This document shows, piece after piece, positions 2,590 through 36,732 of a DNA stretch of 36,732 nt. The notes beneath the pieces are model-generated. The model had not been told where the DNA came from. It searched no databases and saw nothing but the letters and a program-made list of their open reading frames with translations. Source of the stretch: a virus; IMG/VR virus record IMGVR_UViG_3300031920_000373, positions 64,758-101,489 of that record; one strand, 5' to 3'. Numbering within the stretch: the first letter of the stretch is position 1; each line of letters begins with the position of its first letter. The translations under genes were made by a program, and so were the position numbers.

Positions 2590-3438
2590 ATGGCACAAAA
2601 TGTAATCTTTGTGGAAGCAACAAACTTACCTGATCTATGGTATCAAACTCTATACAAAGCGGTAGAGTTTGGAAGAGATTTTACAGTAGATACGGGATCA
2701 TATGAAGGCCAAAGACGAAAAGAGTTCGATTTTGTTGTCCTACATTCTAAATGTCCTGGGGTGGGGGCACTTCTTCCGAAACTGAATCCCGCTTTGAATC
2801 TGGATGATCCTTGTGCCCAAGATTTTCTTGATCAATATATGCCTTACCTCATGACTGGAGAAGAACAACCTGGTGAGGCGTACACGTACGGACAAAGAAT
2901 ATGTGCCGCCAAACTTAGTGTGGCTGATATGAGTGCGAGTGGAATGGCTAACACTGACATCATGATATCAGGTTTCGGTGAGTTAGTGGAACAAGGAATA
3001 ATTTCTTTGTATAAAAATAATGAAAATGTAAAAGAAGGCGAAGGGTGGGACCATCTTCGTGTAAATCAATTGGAACTCATGATTTGGACATACAAAAATA
3101 AAGGATTTCGTAACAATCAAATGATTTTACAAGTAGGAAAACCTACTGACATGCTTCTGAAAGATCCTCCTTGTCTGCGCCACATTGGTACCAGGATTCA
3201 AGACGGTAAACTTCACTTCTATCCTTATTTCAGATCATGGGATTTATGGGGAGGTCTTCCTGCGAATCTCGCTGCCATAGAACTCATGAAACAATATTGC
3301 GCGGAACAGATTGGTGTTGAAAATGGAGAGATCATATGCTCAAGTAAAGGGTTACATTTGTATTCATATGTGTGGGAGATTGCAGAACTTGTAAGAGGAA
3401 AAACATCAAAAGAATTTGCAAAGGAACTGTCAAAATGA
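2590..3438 (+). CDS. thyA: Thymidylate synthase (ThyA fold, archaeal/deltaproteobacterial-like subtype)
   Basis: YTYGQRI, catalytic DPPCL, FRSWDLWGGLPANL (Asn at the dUMP-specificity position), GLHLY. Confidence 0.9.
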   Translation: MAQNVIFVEATNLPDLWYQTLYKAVEFGRDFTVDTGSYEGQRRKEFDFVVLHSKCPGVGALLPKLNPALNLDDPCAQDFLDQYMPYLMTGEEQPGEAYTYGQRICAAKLSVADMSASGMANTDIMISGFGELVEQGIISLYKNNENVKEGEGWDHLRVNQLELMIWTYKNKGFRNNQMILQVGKPTDMLLKDPPCLRHIGTRIQDGKLHFYPYFRSWDLWGGLPANLAAIELMKQYCAEQIGVENGEIICSSKGLHLYSYVWEIAELVRGKTSKEFAKELSK

Positions 3439-4043
3439 AAAAATTACTTAATGTCCTTCAAGAAAGGGAAATAGTGCATTCGTATTTGAAAAATGAAAAT
3501 ACCAAAAAGCTTGCCGAATCTTATGAAGTAAGTCAAGATACCATAAGAAGGACATTAAGTAGAAAAGGTGTTCTAAAAACAAAGATTGATATTAATAAAA
3601 AAATTAATATTTGGAATCATTATGAAGTATCCGAAAATAGTTGTTGGGAATGGACTCTTTCTCTAAGAACAGATGGGTATGGGCAATTTTGTGTAGAAGG
3701 AAAAATGCATGGAGCACATGTATTGGCTTATGAAGTACATAATAAAACAAAAGTTTCACGTGGTTTATTGGTATGCCATACGTGTGATAATCCTAAATGT
3801 ATTAATCCAGATCATTTATTTTTAGGAACTCATCAAGACAATAAAAATGATTGTGTTGGTAAGCATAGACACTCAAGGGGAGAAAAAGTCAATACCTCCA
3901 AATTGGATGAAAAACAAGTAATGGAAATTAGAAAAATATATGAAAAAGGAAATAAAAATCAAAAAGAATTGGGTATTATTTATGGAGTTTCACAAGTGCA
4001 AATCTCCAGTATAATCAGAAAACAATCATGGAGTCACATATGA
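3435..4043 (+). CDS. Free-standing HNH homing endonuclease with HTH domains
   Basis: CWEW...DGYG...AHVLAY...VCHTCDNPKCINPDHLFLGTHQDNKND; HTH-like segments at both ends; probable start is the ATG overlapping the thyA stop. Confidence 0.9.
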   Translation: MKKLLNVLQEREIVHSYLKNENTKKLAESYEVSQDTIRRTLSRKGVLKTKIDINKKINIWNHYEVSENSCWEWTLSLRTDGYGQFCVEGKMHGAHVLAYEVHNKTKVSRGLLVCHTCDNPKCINPDHLFLGTHQDNKNDCVGKHRHSRGEKVNTSKLDEKQVMEIRKIYEKGNKNQKELGIIYGVSQVQISSIIRKQSWSHI

Positions 4044-4462: not shown

Positions 4463-4861
4463 ATGGGAATTAACATGCAAAACCAAATAAAGATTGAGGA
4501 TATTTGTAATATACTGGAAATTTCTCCTAATTCATATGGATTGCATGGAAACATGCAAAAAGAGGAAGCAGAAATAGCCCTTCAGGACTTTAAGGGTATC
4601 GTAAAGAAACAACATAGAGTTTTGGCGAAAAAGTATCATCCAGATCTTCCTTCTTCCGGTGAATCTGAATTAGCCAAAATGAAAGAGATCAATTCCACTA
4701 TTGACCTTATAATGAAACTTAAAATCACAAGAGTGGCACCGAGATCACAAAATATTCATTTTATAAGAAGGCAAGGATTTGGCGGAATGACATGGAGTAA
4801 TAATTCTTCTTCTACTTCTACTACTTCAAATTTCAACGAATTTAAGTTCTACAGATACTAA
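4463..4861 (+). CDS. J-domain (DnaJ-like) protein
   Basis: ILEI...VKKQHRVLAKKYHPD...KMKEINS with an intact HPD motif; real start may be the second Met (MQNQ). Confidence 0.8.
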   Translation: MGINMQNQIKIEDICNILEISPNSYGLHGNMQKEEAEIALQDFKGIVKKQHRVLAKKYHPDLPSSGESELAKMKEINSTIDLIMKLKITRVAPRSQNIHFIRRQGFGGMTWSNNSSSTSTTSNFNEFKFYRY

Positions 4862-4958: not shown

Positions 4959-5363
4959 CTACCAAGAAACGTACTTTGTAACAAAAGAAGTTAAATTAAC
5001 TCCATATTTGTCCCACCCAAATTCAGCTCCGAGTTGTTCTAAGCGCACATAATAACCTATAACATACCCTTTTTCTTCGAAAGTTAAACTTTCCTTCTTT
5101 GCAAGAATATTCAACTCATTCATTATGCCTGTGAGTAACTTCGGCATTTCAAGATCAAAATTTGATGCCAGTAAGCCTTTAATTAATCCAGAAACATAGG
5201 GCCAAGCTTGTATGGATTGTTCAGCACTAATTATACCTTTATTTGCTGATTCTTGAAAAGATGATCCAATTATAACTCCAATGTCAGTGGCTATTTTTGT
5301 TGTGGCACATCCTGTAAAAAATAAAATACTAATCACCATCAATGATGTAATTATTTTTTTCAT
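4959..5363 (-). CDS. Lipoprotein, last gene of the lysis cassette (spanin role possible, unproven)
   Basis: MKKIITSLMVISILFFTG-C signal peptide II/lipobox; AAGGAG SD before ATG 5363. Confidence 0.75.
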   Translation of the reverse strand: MKKIITSLMVISILFFTGCATTKIATDIGVIIGSSFQESANKGIISAEQSIQAWPYVSGLIKGLLASNFDLEMPKLLTGIMNELNILAKKESLTFEEKGYVIGYYVRLEQLGAEFGWDKYGVNLTSFVTKYVSW

Positions 5364-5463: not shown

Positions 5464-6000
5464 TTAAATCTCCGCAAATAGTCCTGGAAAATCAGCGTAT
5501 AAATTATTATTAGCTTTTCTATTTTCCCTCCATCCGATGTAACCCGCAACAGATAAAGTTTTCTTTGCAATATTGGAAGCTTTTTTAAACCCACTTTCCC
5601 AAGCACAAAGGCTTTCAAATATTTCATCAAGTTCACTTTTGGTAAATGTTTTGATATAAAGTTCCCCGGTCATCTCACTTACCAGAATCAAGCACTTATA
5701 ACGATAACCGAAGTCATGTGGCAGGGCACCCAGAAGCAACATTCCGTTTGTACTGAAAAGGCCATTCAATGCTTTGGGAACACTTGCTCCGTCCGATAGA
5801 AAAGAAACAGGCACAAATATGTAGGAGTTCAATAAAGGAACCCAAAGAACATAATCAACCATAACCTCACTCCATCTGCGATAGGTGAGAAATTTTATAA
5901 GTTTCTGATACCAATTACGCTTTGGCGGAACTTTATATACTGCCCTTGATATCGGAAAATGTATTTCTTTTGTAAAATTTACTGTATCCAGTATTCTCAT
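5464..6000 (-). CDS. DUF1353-family protein
   Basis: VP..FLSDGASVPK...GALPHDFGY...KSELDEIF pattern; the family is common near phage lysis genes. Confidence 0.8.
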   Translation of the reverse strand: MRILDTVNFTKEIHFPISRAVYKVPPKRNWYQKLIKFLTYRRWSEVMVDYVLWVPLLNSYIFVPVSFLSDGASVPKALNGLFSTNGMLLLGALPHDFGYRYKCLILVSEMTGELYIKTFTKSELDEIFESLCAWESGFKKASNIAKKTLSVAGYIGWRENRKANNNLYADFPGLFAEI

Positions 6001-6179
6001 AGTAGCTCCTTTGATGTCCTGCTTTGCAGTTCCAGTAAAAATCCTAATATCCTTGTATGCCTCTTTATAATATCAGGAGAGGTTTCTTTCTCCAATAAGG
6101 TTGACTCCTCTGAAATTAGTTTAACAAGCTCAACATGATCACCAAGTTCCGAACTGTTTATTTTTGTACAACTTATCAT
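5997..6179 (-). CDS. Small hypothetical protein (start uncertain)
   Basis: Fills the gap between endolysin and DUF1353; stop overlaps the next ATG; ATG 6179 has an upstream GGAG. Confidence 0.4.
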   Translation of the reverse strand: MISCTKINSSELGDHVELVKLISEESTLLEKETSPDIIKRHTRILGFLLELQSRTSKELL

Positions 6180-6651
6180 TGTCGAATAATCTCCAATACT
6201 CAGAGTTTTTCTGTGGATATCTATAACAATCGGAAATCTCTTTTGTTTCCCTGTCATAAAGTTTATGACAAAACCAAATCCAAGGATAAACTCTTTTCCT
6301 TATATCCAAATGAAACATGACCCAGGGTTTTACATCTGGTCCTGCTGTATCAAGATATATTCCAATACCTGTAAATAACCCGGAATGCAATATCTTTGAA
6401 TAAATTTCAAAAGGCACACCTTCAATGAACTGATCAGAAGCAGTAGATTTCCTTCCAATAGCATAGTGTTGTGAAGTCTTTGATCCATAATCTCTGGCCA
6501 ATGCTCCTGGGACGGGGGAAGGGAACATTCTATTGCCTAATAATTCCCTTAAAGCTCCTAAAGCATACATCAATTCAGGATCTGCATATTTATTTGGATC
6601 TTCTGAAAATTCCCCTGGTGATAGTTTATAAACATAATCCCAATTTATCAT
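6139..6651 (-). CDS. Peptidase M15 (M15A-like) Zn endolysin
   Basis: L..LRE...SQH(Y)...ASD...GIGIY...FHLDIR supply the His/Asp/His Zn ligands of M15 peptidases. Confidence 0.8.
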   Translation of the reverse strand: MINWDYVYKLSPGEFSEDPNKYADPELMYALGALRELLGNRMFPSPVPGALARDYGSKTSQHYAIGRKSTASDQFIEGVPFEIYSKILHSGLFTGIGIYLDTAGPDVKPWVMFHLDIRKRVYPWIWFCHKLYDRETKEISDCYRYPQKNSEYWRLFDNDKLYKNKQFGTW

Positions 6652-7421
6652 ATTATTTTTTCCTTTCTAAAACATCCCCCAAGATGATCACAAATGTTAC
6701 AATCCTTTTTTTCAACTCCATCCATAATATGTGGATTAGGACAAACATGTTTGAACAAGGAGCATTGATTCACCTCGGGAACAATGGCGTAACAAAACAC
6801 ATTATTATCATGGAATATCTTGGTGGCTAATTCATCGTAAATCCACCTGTTTAATTGCCCAGTTAAAAAGGAGGAACGACTCGTAACATCCCACGCAATG
6901 CCTATTGTGCCTATAAACTCTCCTTCGGAATTAAATTGTGGTGTTTTTATAGTATAAAGAAGGATTTCATCATTATCTATTTTTCCTGCTTCCAGAAAGT
7001 GAACAGGTATTCTTTTACTGGCACAATAAATGTCAGAGACAAAACAAATTTCCTCAAATGTATTAATTATTCCATTAGATGTGTATATTTTTTTAATAAG
7101 TTCCTCATCTGTTTTACCTATAACATAATTAAGACATTCCTGCGATCCCTCAAATCCGAAAAAAGACTTACAATGATTTGGATTTGCTAAAATATATTTA
7201 TGGCTTTTGTCTTTCTTCCATACCATTGCTTGGATAGCTTCTGTCAACATACTTAAAGTGGCAATGTATTGTTTATTCCATGAATACAAAGTGTCGTATT
7301 CCTTTTTAAGTAGTTTTATCCTAACTCTGTGGTCTTTTGCTTCTTTGGTGAGTTGCTTTGTAGCTATGGTGGGGTTAAAAAAATTGATTAAAAACTTTCG
7401 TGCCCTTATTATAGCAGTCAT
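6648..7421 (-). CDS. Stand-alone PAS/PAC-domain protein with Cys/His-rich C-terminus
   Basis: MVWKKD...YILAN...IGKTDEEL...TIKTPQFNSEGEFIGTIGIAWDVT is a PAS_4/PAC signature; no kinase or GGDEF output domain. Confidence 0.8.
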   Translation of the reverse strand: MTAIIRARKFLINFFNPTIATKQLTKEAKDHRVRIKLLKKEYDTLYSWNKQYIATLSMLTEAIQAMVWKKDKSHKYILANPNHCKSFFGFEGSQECLNYVIGKTDEELIKKIYTSNGIINTFEEICFVSDIYCASKRIPVHFLEAGKIDNDEILLYTIKTPQFNSEGEFIGTIGIAWDVTSRSSFLTGQLNRWIYDELATKIFHDNNVFCYAIVPEVNQCSLFKHVCPNPHIMDGVEKKDCNICDHLGGCFRKEKII

Positions 7422-7702
7422 TATACTCCCCCTTCATTGTCGGGATCACCGTCTCTATCAGAGTCCATGTAATTCTCAACGGGGGGGATGGGTCTGTGGT
7501 ACAAGACAGTAGGTTGTGATTTAAGGTGGCTGTATAGAGTGCCCAAGCTGGTAATTACTATAAACATAATTATGGCAACTACCAGCTTAGTCACAAGTCC
7601 AAGGATAGCGGCATTGGCATGAACTACTTCTGACAAATCAACTAACCGCTTGGAATGATTATCCAATTCAGTAAAGATCCGATCTATTATTTTCCCTTCC
7701 AT
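7421..7702 (-). CDS. Holin-like single-TM membrane protein
   Basis: N-terminal coiled coil, then hydrophobic LGLVTKLVVAIIMFIVITSLGTLY; first gene of the lysis cassette. Confidence 0.5.
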   Translation of the reverse strand: MEGKIIDRIFTELDNHSKRLVDLSEVVHANAAILGLVTKLVVAIIMFIVITSLGTLYSHLKSQPTVLYHRPIPPVENYMDSDRDGDPDNEGGV

Positions 7703-8840: not shown

Positions 8841-9005
8841 CCAGACAAATCAAGGGAGTCAATACAAGGTGAGTGTCCTTGTGTGGAGCTTAAAACCCTT
8901 GCTGTCTGGATTATTGAAGCATTCTTTCCCTGCCGGCAAGGATACTGATTTGAACGCTTCAATCGGCTTCTCTGTATGCATAGTCATTGACTACACACAA
9001 AAAGC
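8841..9005 (-). ncRNA. Candidate structured RNA (three tandem hairpins)
   Basis: Stems at 8966-9005, 8913-8963 and 8841-8909 tile the intergenic region; most G-U pairs favour the - strand. Confidence 0.45.
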
Positions 9006-9262
9006 TATAAAAACGTTAAGGATTCAAGTCCTACAATCACAAACGCTCGTATGTATTGAAAAAAGAAAACAATTAACCACAGCATTGAAGCCCAGAATAT
9101 TCTCCATGTATTTGAATTATAAGAATTAAACCATTTATTCAAAATAAAATCACTATTCTTATTTTTTAATTTGGTTCTCTTGGATATAAAAATATAGATG
9201 GGTATAAATAAGCCTCGTATAACTATTAAAACAGCCATTATAGTAAAATAATCTTTAACCAT
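9005..9262 (-). CDS. Small AT-rich membrane protein (2 hydrophobic segments)
   Basis: AAGGAG SD; hydrophobic stretches at both ends with a basic loop between. Confidence 0.6.
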   Translation of the reverse strand: MVKDYFTIMAVLIVIRGLFIPIYIFISKRTKLKNKNSDFILNKWFNSYNSNTWRIFWASMLWLIVFFFQYIRAFVIVGLESLTFL

Positions 9263-35254: not shown

Positions 35255-36732
35255 TTAACACCCCACCTTTCTTCTTTTTAATGTGGTTAATTTTCTTGCC
35301 ACAAGATATCTCAAGGAATCCATGCAGTGGTCTTCTAAATCAGTATTTGACACAAGACCTCCATTTGCATAGTACATCCCTGCTTGTTCCGTTGTCAAAT
35401 TATATACTGCTTTTTCTTTTTCGGAGGTCCCATCCACACTTGTAACTACAAGTTGCCGAATCTTGTGGTCGTCCTCTAAAGATTTTTTTACATATTGGAC
35501 ATTCTCTTTTAATTTTTTTGGATTCTTCTCTGCATTCAATTGAGCAATATTTCTGTGAGGAACTTGCTGGAGTAAAATCATTACAACAATAAAGGCACGT
35601 GTATTTTCGTTTAAGTGTTTTTTTAACACACTTTTCCATATTAATTCTAAGCTGTTCTTTACCTTTATCAGATTTTCTCCATCGTTTAAGTGTGTCGTGC
35701 AAATCCCCACCTTCTTTAAGTCTTTCTTGCATATGGAATCTTGCGTGATCGCTGCCATGAAGGAGTTCAAGATTTTTACGACTGCAATCATATTTAATTC
35801 TGTTTTTGTGGTGTAATTCATAATCTTTAGGAATTGGTCCAATATAATATTCCCATTTAACTCTGTGCAATAATGTCTCCCCATCAAAAATTTCACTATG
35901 ACCTGGACTGCATTCAAAATATCCTTCATCGACACTAATGAATTTGATTTCTTGGAAATATGTAATGAGTCTTGACATAAAACATCTCCTTCTTTTAATT
36001 CACATAAAGGAACAAGTCCTTTGGAATTTATAAATATCTTGTGATTGTGCTTTCCTTCTAATTGCAAATTGTTTGATAATGTTACACAATAAGTTCTAAC
36101 TTTTCCTGAAATTCCAGACTTAATGACTTTTCTTAAACCTATTGGTGTATGAACTAAATCACCAATTTTAATGTTTTCAATTAGAACCTGTCCTTTTTCA
36201 GTCTTTACAAAAGTGCCTGCAACAAAACAATCAATGTCCTCTGGCTTCTTTTTATCTCTCTGCATGATGGGCAATGTCCTTATATGGTGTTGGGCTTGCG
36301 GAAAGAAGTATAAATGAGGAGACTCCAATTCTTGTCTCTTTGCCGCACCCAACATTTGTCTTATAATTGACCATCCTGCTATCCTTGATCCTGATCCTTT
36401 ATATGCTTTGGTCCAATAACAACCATGTGATTCTAAATTGCTACCAATGGATGTTCCGTCCCTAACATCATAAATGGACGTATCAGCGGGACCAGGAACA
36501 CATCGAGTATTATATTCGGTCATCATATTATTGTCAATAGCTAATACACGGGCGGCGATTTGTTGTGAGGTTGCTTGGTCTCCCTCATTGATAGTTCCAT
36601 TCCATCCATATAATTCATTTGGAACAATTATTGATCCTCTGGGAATATAAGGAACTCTCATTCCACCTAGGTGATTGGGATTGGGTTGTTCTCCGTTTGC
36701 TTCAAATCCATATGTAACTGCCCATGGCTTAG
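35255..36732 (-). CDS. terL: Terminase large subunit, C-terminal nuclease part (5'-truncated, intein-containing)
   Basis: Frame open to the window edge (KPWAVTYG...); GPADTSI, KGSGSRIAGW, IRTLP..RD...PEDID|intein|TDLEDHCMDSLRY. Confidence 0.9.
   Translation of the reverse strand, partial: KPWAVTYGFEANGEQPNPNHLGGMRVPYIPRGSIIVPNELYGWNGTINEGDQATSQQIAARVLAIDNNMMTEYNTRCVPGPADTSIYDVRDGTSIGSNLESHGCYWTKAYKGSGSRIAGWSIIRQMLGAAKRQELESPHLYFFPQAQHHIRTLPIMQRDKKKPEDIDCFVAGTFVKTEKGQVLIENIKIGDLVHTPIGLRKVIKSGISGKVRTYCVTLSNNLQLEGKHNHKIFINSKGLVPLCELKEGDVLCQDSLHISKKSNSLVSMKDILNAVQVIVKFLMGRHYCTELNGNIILDQFLKIMNYTTKTELNMIAVVKILNSFMAAITQDSICKKDLKKVGICTTHLNDGENLIKVKNSLELIWKSVLKKHLNENTRAFIVVMILLQQVPHRNIAQLNAEKNPKKLKENVQYVKKSLEDDHKIRQLVVTSVDGTSEKEKAVYNLTTEQAGMYYANGGLVSNTDLEDHCMDSLRYLVARKLTTLKRRKVGC
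35345..36229 (-). mobile_element. Intein (295 aa) in TerL
   Basis: Block A CFVAGTFVKT...IENIKIGDLV; block B region HNHKIF; block F VYNLTT; terminal VSN with +1 Thr; removal restores PEDIDTDLEDH. Confidence 0.92.
35400..35978 (-). CDS. HNH endonuclease with C-terminal Zn fingers, nested out of frame inside the intein
   Basis: LHRVKWEYYIGPIPKDYELHHKN...NLELL...H...H; CLYC..KYCSIEC and CPIC..TCSYKC; AAGGAG 7 nt before ATG. Confidence 0.88.
   Translation of the reverse strand: MSRLITYFQEIKFISVDEGYFECSPGHSEIFDGETLLHRVKWEYYIGPIPKDYELHHKNRIKYDCSRKNLELLHGSDHARFHMQERLKEGGDLHDTLKRWRKSDKGKEQLRINMEKCVKKTLKRKYTCLYCCNDFTPASSSQKYCSIECREESKKIKRECPICKKIFRGRPQDSATCSYKCGWDLRKRKSSI

What the first reader, a model, noticed from the sequence alone, without database searches (positions are those of the whole stretch)
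6648..7421. Stand-alone PAS sensor between holin-like gene and endolysin
Seen: a 257-aa protein with an N-terminal coiled coil, a PAS/PAC domain ending in the DVT motif, and a C-terminus C..C..HVC...H...CNICDH...C instead of a kinase or cyclase domain. It overlaps both neighbours (at 7421 and 6648-6651), so it is co-translated with the lysis genes. Known: PAS domains sense redox, O2 or ligands and usually feed kinases or diguanylate cyclases. Inference: a sensor gating lysis timing (antiholin-like), or a decoy for host signalling proteins. The Cys cluster could bind Zn or Fe-S.
Basis: partly seen in the sequence, partly recalled or inferred. Interest (0 to 1): 0.72.

Follow-up and report, generated by a model that had tools for sequence, protein, structure and literature searches.

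The report
Membrane-paired PAS sensor in phage lysis cassette
An uncultured ~100-kb phage encodes, between a tiny membrane protein and its cell-wall-cutting enzyme, a sensor-type (PAS) protein related to the quorum-sensing receptor VqmA but lacking any DNA-binding part; the same gene pair recurs beside lysis genes in many unrelated phages, so it probably ties host bursting to a chemical or redox signal, which nobody has tested.

Summary
ORF 6648-7421(-) encodes 257 aa: a long N-terminal helix, a confident PAS fold, a helix-hairpin and a Cys/His tail. It overlaps both neighbours (TAATG, ATGA).

The PAS core is homologous to VqmA-type ligand-binding domains (hhalign 91%, E 1e-6; Z 13.2). It has no HTH. 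The ligand-binding Lys is kept, and Thr replaces one DPO-stacking Phe. Cys126 aligns to another Phe; I did not confirm that this Phe is the second stacker.

The downstream 170-aa protein is a LAS/M15-type metallopeptidase, the only muralytic candidate found in the 101-kb record. The upstream 93-aa protein is a single-pass membrane protein in the holin slot.

All 19 distinct loci that carry a relative have a small membrane partner or a fused membrane anchor. Ten have a firm wall hydrolase of three unrelated families within two genes. One related cassette has a GAF protein in the same slot.

My best reading is a membrane-tethered cytoplasmic sensor that modulates lysis timing. This rests on gene context and homology only; ligand, metal content and effect on lysis are untested.

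This scan reported the same two-gene unit twice before on other DNA (e1-3507133, e1-5798437). I found no paper on it.

The parts
7421..7702 (-). 93-aa partner protein: about 30-residue N-terminal amphipathic helix, one transmembrane segment (about residues 26-60 by hydropathy) and an acidic Pro-rich tail. It lies in the holin slot and its stop overlaps the PAS start.
   Evidence: A protein of the same build lies directly upstream of the PAS gene in 15 of 19 loci, downstream in 2, and is replaced by a fused anchor in 2. There is no significant Pfam, PHROG or NCBIfam hit.
6648..7421 (-). 257-aa stand-alone VqmA-type PAS protein (the finding).
7236..7373 (-). Residues 17-62: one long N-terminal helix (coiled-coil candidate, probable docking or dimerisation element).
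   Evidence: AF2 secondary structure with pLDDT 86-95. W48, Y52, L56, L59 and T60 are conserved.
6882..7232 (-). Residues 64-180: PAS core. Signature: W68-x-K70-D71, Y76, A79-N80, H83-C84, C96, G102-x-x-D105, F122, C126, D130, H141, E144, K159-T-P, G171, G174, D178-x-T180.
6777..6881 (-). Residues 181-215: helix (QLNRWIY) plus beta-hairpin (VFCYAI) that follows the PAS core. It is shared with many phage-type relatives.
6651..6776 (-). Residues 216-257: Cys/His tail, C220-x2-F-x-H225-x-C227-P followed by C241-x2-C244 and C250. Candidate Zn knuckle or ribbon.
   Evidence: pLDDT is below 50 here.
6139..6651 (-). 170-aa LAS/M15-type metallopeptidase (endolysin candidate) with no signal peptide or SAR segment.
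   Evidence: AF2 pLDDT 97.4. VIA-wide top hit is 1lbu Zn DD-peptidase at Z 8.1, then hedgehog-N at Z about 6, then Ply500, LysB4 and T5 endolysins at Z 4.6-4.9. H62, D73, H114 and D116 are invariant. The family has at least 230 members. Holin-like and lipoprotein genes flank homologues.
5997..6179 (-). About 60-aa soluble helical protein (the listed ORF runs to 6257; homologues start at the internal ATG). It overlaps the endolysin 3' end and, by ATGA, the next gene.
   Evidence: L001, L002 and L009 homologues of 60-69 aa.
5464..6000 (-). 178-aa DUF1353 protein, a conserved member of the cassette.
   Evidence: Pfam PF07087 at 25 bits; phrog_1158; synteny.
4959..5363 (-). Lipoprotein (lipobox LFFTGC; probable start at MKKIIT). 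Last gene of the cassette and an outer-membrane-step candidate.
   Evidence: Lipoprotein genes end the cassette in L001, L002, L005, L007, L015 and L019.
9005..9262 (-). 85-aa two-TM protein between the tail-fibre-like genes: a second holin-like candidate.
   Evidence: conserved in L001 and L005. No family hit.

Best explanation
The 257-aa protein is a cytoplasmic sensor that has no output domain. Its PAS core is homologous to the ligand-binding domain of VqmA-type receptors. I propose that it docks through its long N-terminal helix onto the cytoplasmic N-terminal helix of the co-translated 93-aa single-pass membrane protein, which lies in the holin slot of the lysis cassette. The pair would then advance or delay membrane permeabilisation, acting like an antiholin or holin co-factor, and so control release of the cytoplasmic LAS-type endolysin. 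The input would be an intracellular small molecule and/or the redox or metal state, read by the Cys/His-lined PAS pocket (H83/C84, C96, C126, H141, with D130, E144, K159) and the Cys/His tail. Shown here: the fold, the homology, the conserved residues, the gene pairing and the recurrent linkage to lysis genes. Inferred: the physical interaction, the membrane topology, the sensing and the effect on lysis.
For: (1) The fold is PAS. (2) The PAS core is homologous to VqmA_Phage of VP882: hhalign with a 71-sequence profile gives Prob 91%, E 1e-6. W-x-KD, AN, G-x-TD, F...D, KTP and GT...D-x-T all align. K159 aligns with the Lys of the VqmA F-x-K-T-P motif; in V. cholerae VqmA that Lys, K101, hydrogen-bonds DPO. 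(3) The same core signature is kept in more than 70 cellular multi-PAS sensors, which points to a conserved ligand pocket rather than a mere scaffold. (4) Phage-type proteins gain extra Cys: Cys at all four of positions 84/96/126/140 occurs in 21/71 of them against 2/72 cellular ones. VqmA itself uses a PAS-domain disulfide (C48-C63) as an O2/redox switch (PMC7387800). (5) All 19 distinct loci have a small coiled-helix plus one-TM partner next to the PAS gene, or a fused membrane anchor. (6) A firm muralytic enzyme lies within two genes in 10 of 19 loci. It comes from three unrelated families (LAS-170, GH108+PG_binding_3, M15_3), with three further weak cases and a GTA_holin_3TM. (7) In LAS cassettes without the pair, a holin-like TM protein occupies the same position. 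(8) In L029 a coil+GAF protein plus a one-TM protein sit in the same slot before a homologous endolysin. (9) Start/stop overlaps run through the whole cassette. (10) No other endolysin family was found in the 101-kb record.
Against: There is no experimental or structural evidence for an interaction or for any effect on lysis. In one lineage (L022-L026) the pair lies between the portal and MuF head genes. In L008, L012, L020 and L021 no wall enzyme was seen nearby. Related LAS cassettes work without the pair (L031, L034, L036, L039), so at most it is accessory. The only one-TM fusion (P0032/L015) would put the PAS domain on the opposite membrane face from the partner's N-helix. It also keeps an internal GGAGGA plus ATG and an out-of-frame TAA, so it may be an indel artefact. 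A separate two-TM holin-like gene exists at 9005-9262, so the 93-aa protein need not be the holin. Pocket geometry and Cys proximity could not be measured because no coordinates were available. The loci are not phylogenetically independent.
Confidence: 0.5

Rival explanations
1. Decoy or dominant-negative of host signalling. A VqmA-like PAS protein without a DNA-binding domain soaks up a host autoinducer-like ligand, or heterodimerises with host VqmA-type PAS sensors (kinases, transcription factors), to blunt host quorum-sensing or stress responses. The small membrane protein merely places it at the membrane.
For: The PAS core is homologous to the PAS domains of cellular sensor kinases and phosphatases at E about 1e-20 to 1e-27 and to VqmA. 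The protein lacks any output domain. VqmA dimerises through its PAS domain and N-terminal helices.
Against: This does not explain why the gene pair sits next to unrelated endolysin families in different phage types. It does not explain the replacement by a GAF protein in the same slot, nor the expression at the far end of the late operon with translational coupling to lysis genes. No host is known, so no host target can be named.
Confidence: 0.17
2. Non-sensory adaptor. The PAS fold and coiled coil serve only as a protein-protein scaffold, and the Cys/His sites are structural Zn. The protein might, for example, hold or chaperone the cytoplasmic endolysin at the membrane or help the small membrane protein oligomerise.
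For: The PAS gene overlaps the endolysin start in the window's clade. The Cys/His tail with CxxC looks like a small Zn module. Many PAS domains act as dimerisation modules (established knowledge).
Against: Charged residues at positions that align with VqmA binding-site positions are invariant (K70, D130, E144, K159), and the same residues are kept in cellular sensors. The endolysin partner changes family between loci while the PAS protein stays the same. The GAF swap in L029 points to ligand sensing.
Confidence: 0.15
3. A late membrane function unrelated to lysis, for example superinfection exclusion, defence against other phages, or control of a virion-assembly step.
For: In L022-L026 the pair lies between the portal and MuF genes. 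In the window it follows tail-fibre-like genes. Several loci show no nearby wall enzyme.
Against: Ten of 19 loci have a firm muralytic enzyme within two genes, where a random gene in a roughly 100-gene phage would have about a 5% chance (my rough estimate). A GTA-type holin is adjacent in L013. Lipoprotein genes close the cassette.
Confidence: 0.1

Closest known systems
VqmA quorum-sensing receptors (Vibrio cholerae VqmA, PDB 6ide/6ugl/6kju; vibriophage VP882 VqmA_Phage, PDB 7dwm)
   Same: The PAS ligand-binding domain is homologous: VIA Z 13.1-13.2 over 135-142 residues at 18-20% identity, and hhalign Prob 91%, E 1e-6. W-x-KD, AN, G-x-TD, F...D, K-T-P and GT...D-x-T are shared. The Lys that hydrogen-bonds DPO is kept (K159). 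VqmA_Phage is likewise phage-encoded and linked to the decision to lyse. VqmA also uses PAS-domain cysteines as a redox switch.
   Different: There is no LuxR-type HTH. A helix-hairpin plus Cys/His tail takes its place, and a 60-residue N-terminal helix is added. T157 replaces the Phe of the F-x-K-T-P motif, and C126 aligns with VqmA_Phage F71, so DPO is unlikely to be the ligand. The gene lies in the late lysis cassette, coupled to a membrane protein, not in an early regulatory region driving an antirepressor. Any action would therefore be post-translational. The Cys positions differ from VqmA C48/C63/C134.
Cytoplasmic and periplasmic antiholins of T4 lysis inhibition (RIII, RI) acting on the single-TM holin T
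   Same: The concept is the same: a separate soluble protein binds a terminal domain of a single-pass holin and shifts lysis time in response to a signal (established knowledge; review PMC6832632, listed but not read).
   Different: No sequence or fold relationship was found. The T4 proteins have no PAS domain. Here the interaction and the holin identity are only inferred.
Phage Mu releasin gp25 (DUF2730)
   Same: It is a membrane-tethered, mainly cytoplasmic lysis accessory protein that is not a holin (PMC9239132).
   Different: [quoted passage not shown] Here the tether and the soluble domain are two genes, the partner's TM is C-terminal, the endolysin has no SAR or signal segment, and there was no DUF2730 match.
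Thiol- or Fe-S-based PAS redox sensors (ArcB PAS cysteines; NreB [4Fe-4S] PAS)
   Same: Conserved Cys inside a cytoplasmic PAS domain is the probable sensing element (recalled knowledge, not tested here).
   Different: The Cys spacing differs (here 84, 96, 126 and 140/141, against two CxxC pairs in NreB). There is no kinase output, and no cofactor evidence.

Membership tests
PAS fold superfamily | Five-stranded antiparallel beta-sheet flanked by helices (A-beta/B-beta, C-F alpha, G-I beta) | tested here: met
   The AF2 model has strands 66-71, 76-79, 140-148, 151-163 and 169-178 and helices 81-134. Foldseek hits at E<=1e-3 are PAS domains. VIA gives Z 9-13 to many PAS structures.
PAS fold superfamily | Score above the curated cut-off of a Pfam PAS family | tested here: not met
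   PAS_4 scores 16.5 bits against a cut-off of 23.1 and matches only residues 140-183. A family profile nevertheless hits bona fide PAS_4/PAS_9 sensors at E 1e-20 to 1e-27.
VqmA-type receptor/transcription factor | VqmA-like PAS ligand-binding domain | tested here: met
   hhalign Prob 91%, E 1e-6 against VqmA_Phage. Z 13.2 to V. cholerae VqmA.
VqmA-type receptor/transcription factor | C-terminal LuxR-type helix-turn-helix DNA-binding domain | tested here: not met
   There is no HTH family in Pfam or NCBIfam. The model shows one helix, a hairpin and a disordered Cys tail after the PAS core. The protein ends 78 residues after the PAS domain.
VqmA-type receptor/transcription factor | DPO-contact residues (V. 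cholerae F67, F99, K101) | tested here: not met
   The Lys is kept (K159 = VqmA_Phage K104). The Phe of the F-x-K motif is Thr157. Cys126 aligns with VqmA_Phage F71. The mapping of V. cholerae F67 onto VqmA_Phage F67 or F71 was not verified.
Antiholin / holin regulator | Binds a holin and changes the time of hole formation | not testable with these tools
   Only gene position and coupling are available.
Holin (for the 93-aa partner) | Small protein with at least one TMD and a charged hydrophilic C-terminus, encoded next to the endolysin | tested here: met
   It is 93 aa with one hydrophobic segment at about 26-60 and an acidic tail. It lies one gene from the endolysin, in the position taken by holin-like genes in L031, L034, L036 and L039.
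Holin (for the 93-aa partner) | Lethal, timed permeabilisation of the cytoplasmic membrane; membership of a described holin family | tested here: inconclusive
   There is no significant Pfam, PHROG or NCBIfam hit (XhlA E 0.94). The Atlas lead reached only 0.85-0.87. Function is not testable here.
LAS / peptidase M15 endolysin (for the 170-aa neighbour) | LAS fold with Zn-ligand His...Asp...His-x-Asp motifs | tested here: met
   Z 8.1 to 1lbu, Z about 6 to hedgehog-N, and Z 4-5 to Ply500, LysB4, T5 endolysin, VanX and MepA. H62, D73, H114 and D116 are invariant in 41 sequences.
LAS / peptidase M15 endolysin (for the 170-aa neighbour) | Score above the cut-off of a Pfam M15 family | tested here: not met
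   No Pfam hit for five members. The Atlas lead was PF08291 in 12% of one neighbouring cluster.
Fe-S or Zn-binding PAS sensors | Bound metal cluster ligated by the conserved Cys/His | not testable with these tools
   C84, C96, C126, H141, C220 and C227 are invariant. No coordinates or chemistry were available.

The most novel reading that the evidence does not exclude
Many uncultured phages set their lysis clock post-translationally with a dedicated two-part sensor. A stand-alone VqmA-type PAS protein (or, interchangeably, a GAF protein) is tethered to a single-pass holin-like protein. It reads an intracellular metabolite, an autoinducer-like molecule or the redox/O2 state through a Cys/His-lined pocket and gates hole formation. 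This would be a ligand-gated holin system, a class of lysis control not described so far.
Probability: 0.35. Interest if true: 0.85.

Novelty: new variant of a known kind. Interest (0 to 1): 0.66.

Why it matters
Lysis timing sets phage burst size and fitness. The well-studied case of signal-responsive control at the protein level is T4-type lysis inhibition. A sensor-domain protein wired to the membrane step of lysis would be a second, chemically addressable way of timing lysis. The pair recurs in many unrelated phages and appears to swap between PAS and GAF. It would also extend the VqmA story from transcriptional lysis-lysogeny switches to late, post-translational control. In addition it would give a compact, possibly ligand- or redox-gated lysis module for synthetic biology. 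The family has no cultured representative and no PHROG or Pfam family of its own, so it is currently invisible to annotation.

Tried and rejected
1. PHROGs gave no family for the window protein or for ten distant relatives.
2. tblastn against 50,697 phage records found nothing for the window protein or for P0066.
3. The genome-contig scans with A1 and A6 found no prophage copy, so the host stays unknown.
4. PDB sequence searches with profiles A1 and A4 returned only coiled-coil noise (geminin, myosin) and no PAS structure.
5. hhalign of the 25-sequence A1 profile against VqmA_Phage matched only the KTP...GT...D-x-T stretch at Prob 1.9%. The 71-sequence profile was needed.
6. hhalign of the shallow LAS alignment against two Pfam-supported M15 neighbours failed. 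The fold search settled the point instead.
7. An XhlA relationship for the 93-aa protein is rejected as unsupported: E 0.94 in the window copy and no hit in nine other copies.
8. Mu releasin (DUF2730) membership is rejected because of opposite TM placement, a SAR endolysin partner and no sequence match.
9. An i-spanin reading of the 93-aa protein is rejected, because the TM is not N-terminal and most relatives have almost no periplasmic tail.
10. P0032 as Rosetta-stone fusion evidence is downgraded, because it keeps an internal SD plus ATG and an out-of-frame TAA at the junction.
11. The promoter and terminator scan was at the shuffled-control level.
12. Broad alignments A4, A5 and A7 were too diverse for the search for related loci.
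I redid it from locus references.
Full report
**1. What is at the coordinates**

The window is the last 36.7 kb of a 101,489-bp IMG/VR virus record that CheckV estimates to be 76% complete. Its minus strand carries a late operon. That operon includes an intein-containing protein, a DUF4055 portal and a P22-type coat protein, tail-fibre-like genes, and finally the cassette studied here.

- The upstream 93-aa gene ends in TAA, and its last A is the A of the PAS gene's ATG (TAATG at 7421). A GGGGGAG run lies just upstream.
- The PAS gene's TGA overlaps the ATG of the next gene (ATGA, 6648-6651).
- Further downstream, the roughly 60-aa gene overlaps the endolysin's 3' end. Its own stop overlaps the DUF1353 start (5997-6000).

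The whole block is therefore built for coupled translation.

**2. The protein itself**

A search of 5.8 billion proteins found 25 relatives of 240-283 aa at 41-73% identity. All come from metagenomes or viral contigs and none is named.

Their alignment shows these conserved residues:
- Invariant: W48, T60, A65, W68, K70, Y76, C84, F87, C96, G102, D105, F122, C126, D130, H141, E144, L154, Y156, K159, G171, G174, L190, W193, Y211, C220, F223, C227.
- Near-invariant: H83 and H225.

With this alignment AlphaFold2 gives a confident model (pLDDT 83.6, pTM 0.70). It contains:
- a long helix, residues 17-62;
- a PAS core, residues 66-178, ending in the W-D-V-T 'PAC' motif;
- a helix, residues 180-195;
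- a beta-hairpin, residues 199-213;
- a low-confidence Cys/His tail.

Foldseek and VIA-align both place it among PAS domains. The best matches are V. cholerae VqmA (Z 13.1-13.2, 135-142 residues aligned at 18-20% identity) and vibriophage VP882 VqmA_Phage (Z 11.3). BFVD returns phage 'PAS domain' and 'histidine kinase' proteins. Pfam alone would not have called the domain: PAS_4 scores 16.5 bits, below the cut-off.

**3. Which PAS**

A profile of the 25 sequences was run against 1.84 billion cluster representatives. It hit 2400 proteins at E<=1e-3 and 881 at E<=1e-10.

Among the 150 best hits, two groups stand out:
- about 70 stand-alone proteins of 180-360 aa with the same coil-PAS-helix-hairpin build;
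- about 70 long cellular multi-domain sensors with PAS_4/PAS_9 repeats plus HisKA_2/HWE kinase, SpoIIE phosphatase or GAF domains.

Both groups keep the same core signature: W68, K70, D71, Y76, C84, G102, D105, F122, C126, D130, E144, K159, G171, G174.

I fetched VP882 from GenBank and aligned VqmA_Phage to a 71-sequence profile of the stand-alone group. hhalign gave Prob 91%, E 1e-6 over 194 columns. The aligned motifs are:

| This protein | VqmA_Phage |
|---|---|
| VW-KKD | PWGIKD |
| LAN | YAN |
| GKTD | GLTD |
| FEEICFVSD | FADSFQAQD |
| LYTIKTP | FTFTKTP |
| GTIGIAWDVT | GTIFHGQDLT |

Positions are given.

In V. cholerae VqmA the autoinducer DPO is held by stacking on F67 and F99 and by a hydrogen bond from K101 (bioRxiv 10.1101/2019.12.19.881847).
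- The F-x-K-T-P motif maps K159 onto that Lys.
- The same motif maps T157 onto the Phe.
- C126 aligns with VqmA_Phage F71, and D130 with D75.

The protein is therefore a VqmA-type PAS domain with the ligand Lys and the acidic pocket residues kept, and with at least one aromatic DPO contact replaced. I could not verify which VqmA_Phage Phe (F67 or F71) equals V. cholerae F67.

There is no HTH. Nothing after the PAS core matches a DNA-binding family, and the model shows only a helix, a hairpin and the tail.

**4. The cysteines**

C84 and C126 are general features of this PAS subfamily: 54 of 72 cellular members have exactly these two. The phage-type proteins add C96 (45/70) and C140 (40/70). Cys at all four positions occurs in 21/71 phage-type proteins against 2/72 cellular ones.

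In the window's own clade position 140 is variable, but H141 is invariant and H83 is 24/25. That gives a possible H/C84-C96-C126-H141 site at positions that align with VqmA binding-site residues.

The tail adds C220 and C227 (25/25), H225 (24/25) and a distal CxxC (18/25). Tails in the wider group usually keep at least one Cys (59/71).

VqmA itself uses a PAS-domain disulfide (C48-C63) to report oxygen and redox state (PMC7387800), but at different positions. Whether the Cys here form a Zn site, an Fe-S site or a thiol switch cannot be decided without coordinates or chemistry.

**5. The neighbours**

The 170-aa protein has no Pfam, PHROG or NCBIfam hit. It belongs to a family of at least 230 members with invariant H62, D73, H114 and D116.

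Its AF2 model is excellent (pLDDT 97.4). An all-against-representatives structural search gave these matches:
- Streptomyces Zn DD-peptidase 1lbu first (Z 8.1, 107 residues);
- hedgehog N-domains (Z about 6);
- phage endolysins Ply500, LysB4 and T5 L-alanoyl-D-glutamate peptidase (Z 4.6-4.9);
- VanX, VanY and MepA (Z about 4).

This is the LAS family. The protein has no signal or SAR segment, so it needs a membrane lesion to reach the wall.

Searches for Phage_lysozyme, Amidase_2, GH108 and SLT in the whole record found nothing. For GH108 the control genomes also gave nothing, so that negative result is weak.

Homologous LAS genes in other phages are flanked by holin-like TM proteins upstream and lipoproteins downstream (L031, L034, L036, L039). 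That fixes both its role as an endolysin and the meaning of the slot in which the 93-aa gene lies.

The 93-aa protein has an amphipathic N-terminal helix of about 30 residues, one hydrophobic segment and an acidic Pro-rich tail. It matches no described family.

**6. Neighbourhood survey**

I collected 19 distinct loci that carry the window protein or relatives down to about 20% identity.

Membrane partner:
- In 15 loci a 63-125-aa protein with the same build (N-terminal helix with a D/E-hydrophobic-x-x-hydrophobic-x-E-hydrophobic pattern, then one TM close to the C-terminus) is encoded directly upstream, usually with overlapping stop and start.
- In 2 loci (L019, L020) a one-TM protein follows the PAS gene instead.
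- In L015 the two reading frames are joined.
- In L016 and five other representatives (P0064, P0101, P0102, P0107, P0126) the PAS module is fused to an N-terminal multi-TM domain. From the charge distribution I read this domain as three TMs with N-out/C-in topology.

Wall enzyme within two genes:
- LAS-170 in 7 loci.
- GH108+PG_binding_3 in L006 and L014, the latter a T4-like phage with Gp23, Gp5 and gp53 genes.
- Peptidase_M15_3 in L010.
- Weaker matches: M15_3 in L013 (21.2 bits against a cut-off of 23.2, next to a GTA_holin_3TM), M15_4 in L015 and M23 in L019.
- GH108 lies 2.2 kb away in L016.

Exceptions:
- In L022-L026 the pair sits between the portal and MuF genes.
- In L008, L012, L020 and L021 no wall enzyme was recognised.

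For a gene in a phage of about 100 genes with one or two wall enzymes, chance proximity would be about 5%. That figure is my rough estimate, and the loci are not independent. Even so, at least four different cassette types are involved.

L029 encodes a 46%-identical LAS endolysin. It has, in the same upstream slot, a 218-aa coil+GAF protein (PF01590 at 23.1 bits, cut-off 22.4) and a 128-aa one-TM protein. This is a single case, but a swap of one small-molecule-sensor fold for another at the same position is what a sensing role predicts.

**7. Mechanism proposed, and its status**

Shown here:
- a VqmA-type PAS protein without an output domain;
- invariant pocket-position residues and cysteines;
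- obligatory pairing with, or fusion to, a membrane element;
- repeated linkage to lysis genes;
- translational coupling.

Inferred:
- The partner is tail-anchored, N-in. Relatives have 35-95 hydrophilic N-terminal residues, no signal peptide, and only 4-8 residues after the TM.
- The PAS protein's helix 17-62 bundles with the partner's N-helix.
- The complex tunes hole formation according to a ligand and/or redox state.

Weak points:
- The single one-TM fusion would contradict the proposed topology if it is real. However, it keeps its own Shine-Dalgarno sequence and ATG, and an out-of-frame TAA, at the junction.
- A second, two-TM holin-like gene exists at 9005-9262.
- Related cassettes do without the pair.

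**8. Comparison with what is known**

The closest characterised relatives are the VqmA receptors. The protein works with the same kind of domain, but it is not a member of that transcription-factor family: the HTH is absent and an aromatic ligand contact is replaced.

Functionally, the nearest analogues are T4 RI and RIII acting on holin T, and, as a membrane-tethered non-holin lysis factor, Mu releasin (PMC9239132). Neither is related in sequence or architecture.

Full-text searches for PAS domains in lysis cassettes, with antiholins or with lysis timing found no relevant paper. The library covers open-access papers and bioRxiv only.

**9. Earlier notes of this scan**

After my own survey I found that two earlier agents had described the same two-gene unit on other genomes and also named VqmA as the closest relative (e1-3507133, e1-5798437). 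Others had noted membrane-anchored PAS proteins beside lysis genes. These notes agree with my reading, but they are not independent experimental evidence.

**10. Verdict**

- The protein is a new variant of known kinds (PAS sensors; lysis-timing regulators), with no cultured representative and no annotation family.
- Interest is moderate to high, because the unit is widespread, compact and directly testable.

Noticed in passing
window 5464-6000 (-): The DUF1353 protein (178 aa, invariant FDGASVPK...PHDFGYRY) is a constant member of the lysis-type cassette here and in L001, L002, L005, L008, L011 and L031. PHROG calls its family 'tail assembly chaperone', which fits poorly with this position. 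Its role is unknown.
   Followed up: partly
L029:3000-3656 (+): A stand-alone coil+GAF protein (PF01590 at 23.1 bits), followed by a 128-aa one-TM protein, lies directly upstream of a homologous LAS endolysin. This looks like a PAS-to-GAF swap in the same cassette slot. Only one case was seen.
   Followed up: partly
window 4463-4861 (+): A 132-aa protein has a J-domain-like stretch (KKYHPD; DnaJ at 22 bits, below the 27.8 cut-off). It is encoded convergently just after the cassette. Opposite-strand genes of 127 and 128 aa lie at the matching place in L001 and L002; I did not compare their sequences with this one.
   Followed up: no
window 3372-4043 (+): An HNH_3 homing-endonuclease-like protein carries Sigma70_r4- and Mor-like HTH segments. 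L001 has an HNH_3 gene at a different place, which suggests mobile endonucleases in this phage group.
   Followed up: no
window 35255-36661 (-) and L022:3989-6040: Intein/Hint domains lie inside late genes: the window's 468-aa protein near the record end, and a MuF-like protein in L022 that also carries a Vsr/DUF559 endonuclease domain.
   Followed up: no
window 2590-3438 (+); L001 and L002: A divergent thymidylate-synthase-like gene (Thymidylat_synt, E 1.6e-9) lies in the window. The related phages L001 and L002 carry ThyX (PF02511, Thy1) at the matching side of the cassette.
   Followed up: no
P0064, P0068 (L016:4001-4903), P0101, P0102, P0107, P0126: These are fused forms in which a roughly 120-residue N-terminal multi-TM domain precedes the same coil-PAS module. 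From the charge distribution I read the domain as three TMs, N-out/C-in, like class I holins. P0068 lies in a 287-kb jumbo-phage contig with a GH108 gene 2.2 kb away.
   Followed up: partly
P0038, P0076: Proteins of 401 and 431 aa carry GAF or GAF_2 in front of the same PAS module, with the PAS module at the very C-terminus. Their genomic context was not examined.
   Followed up: no
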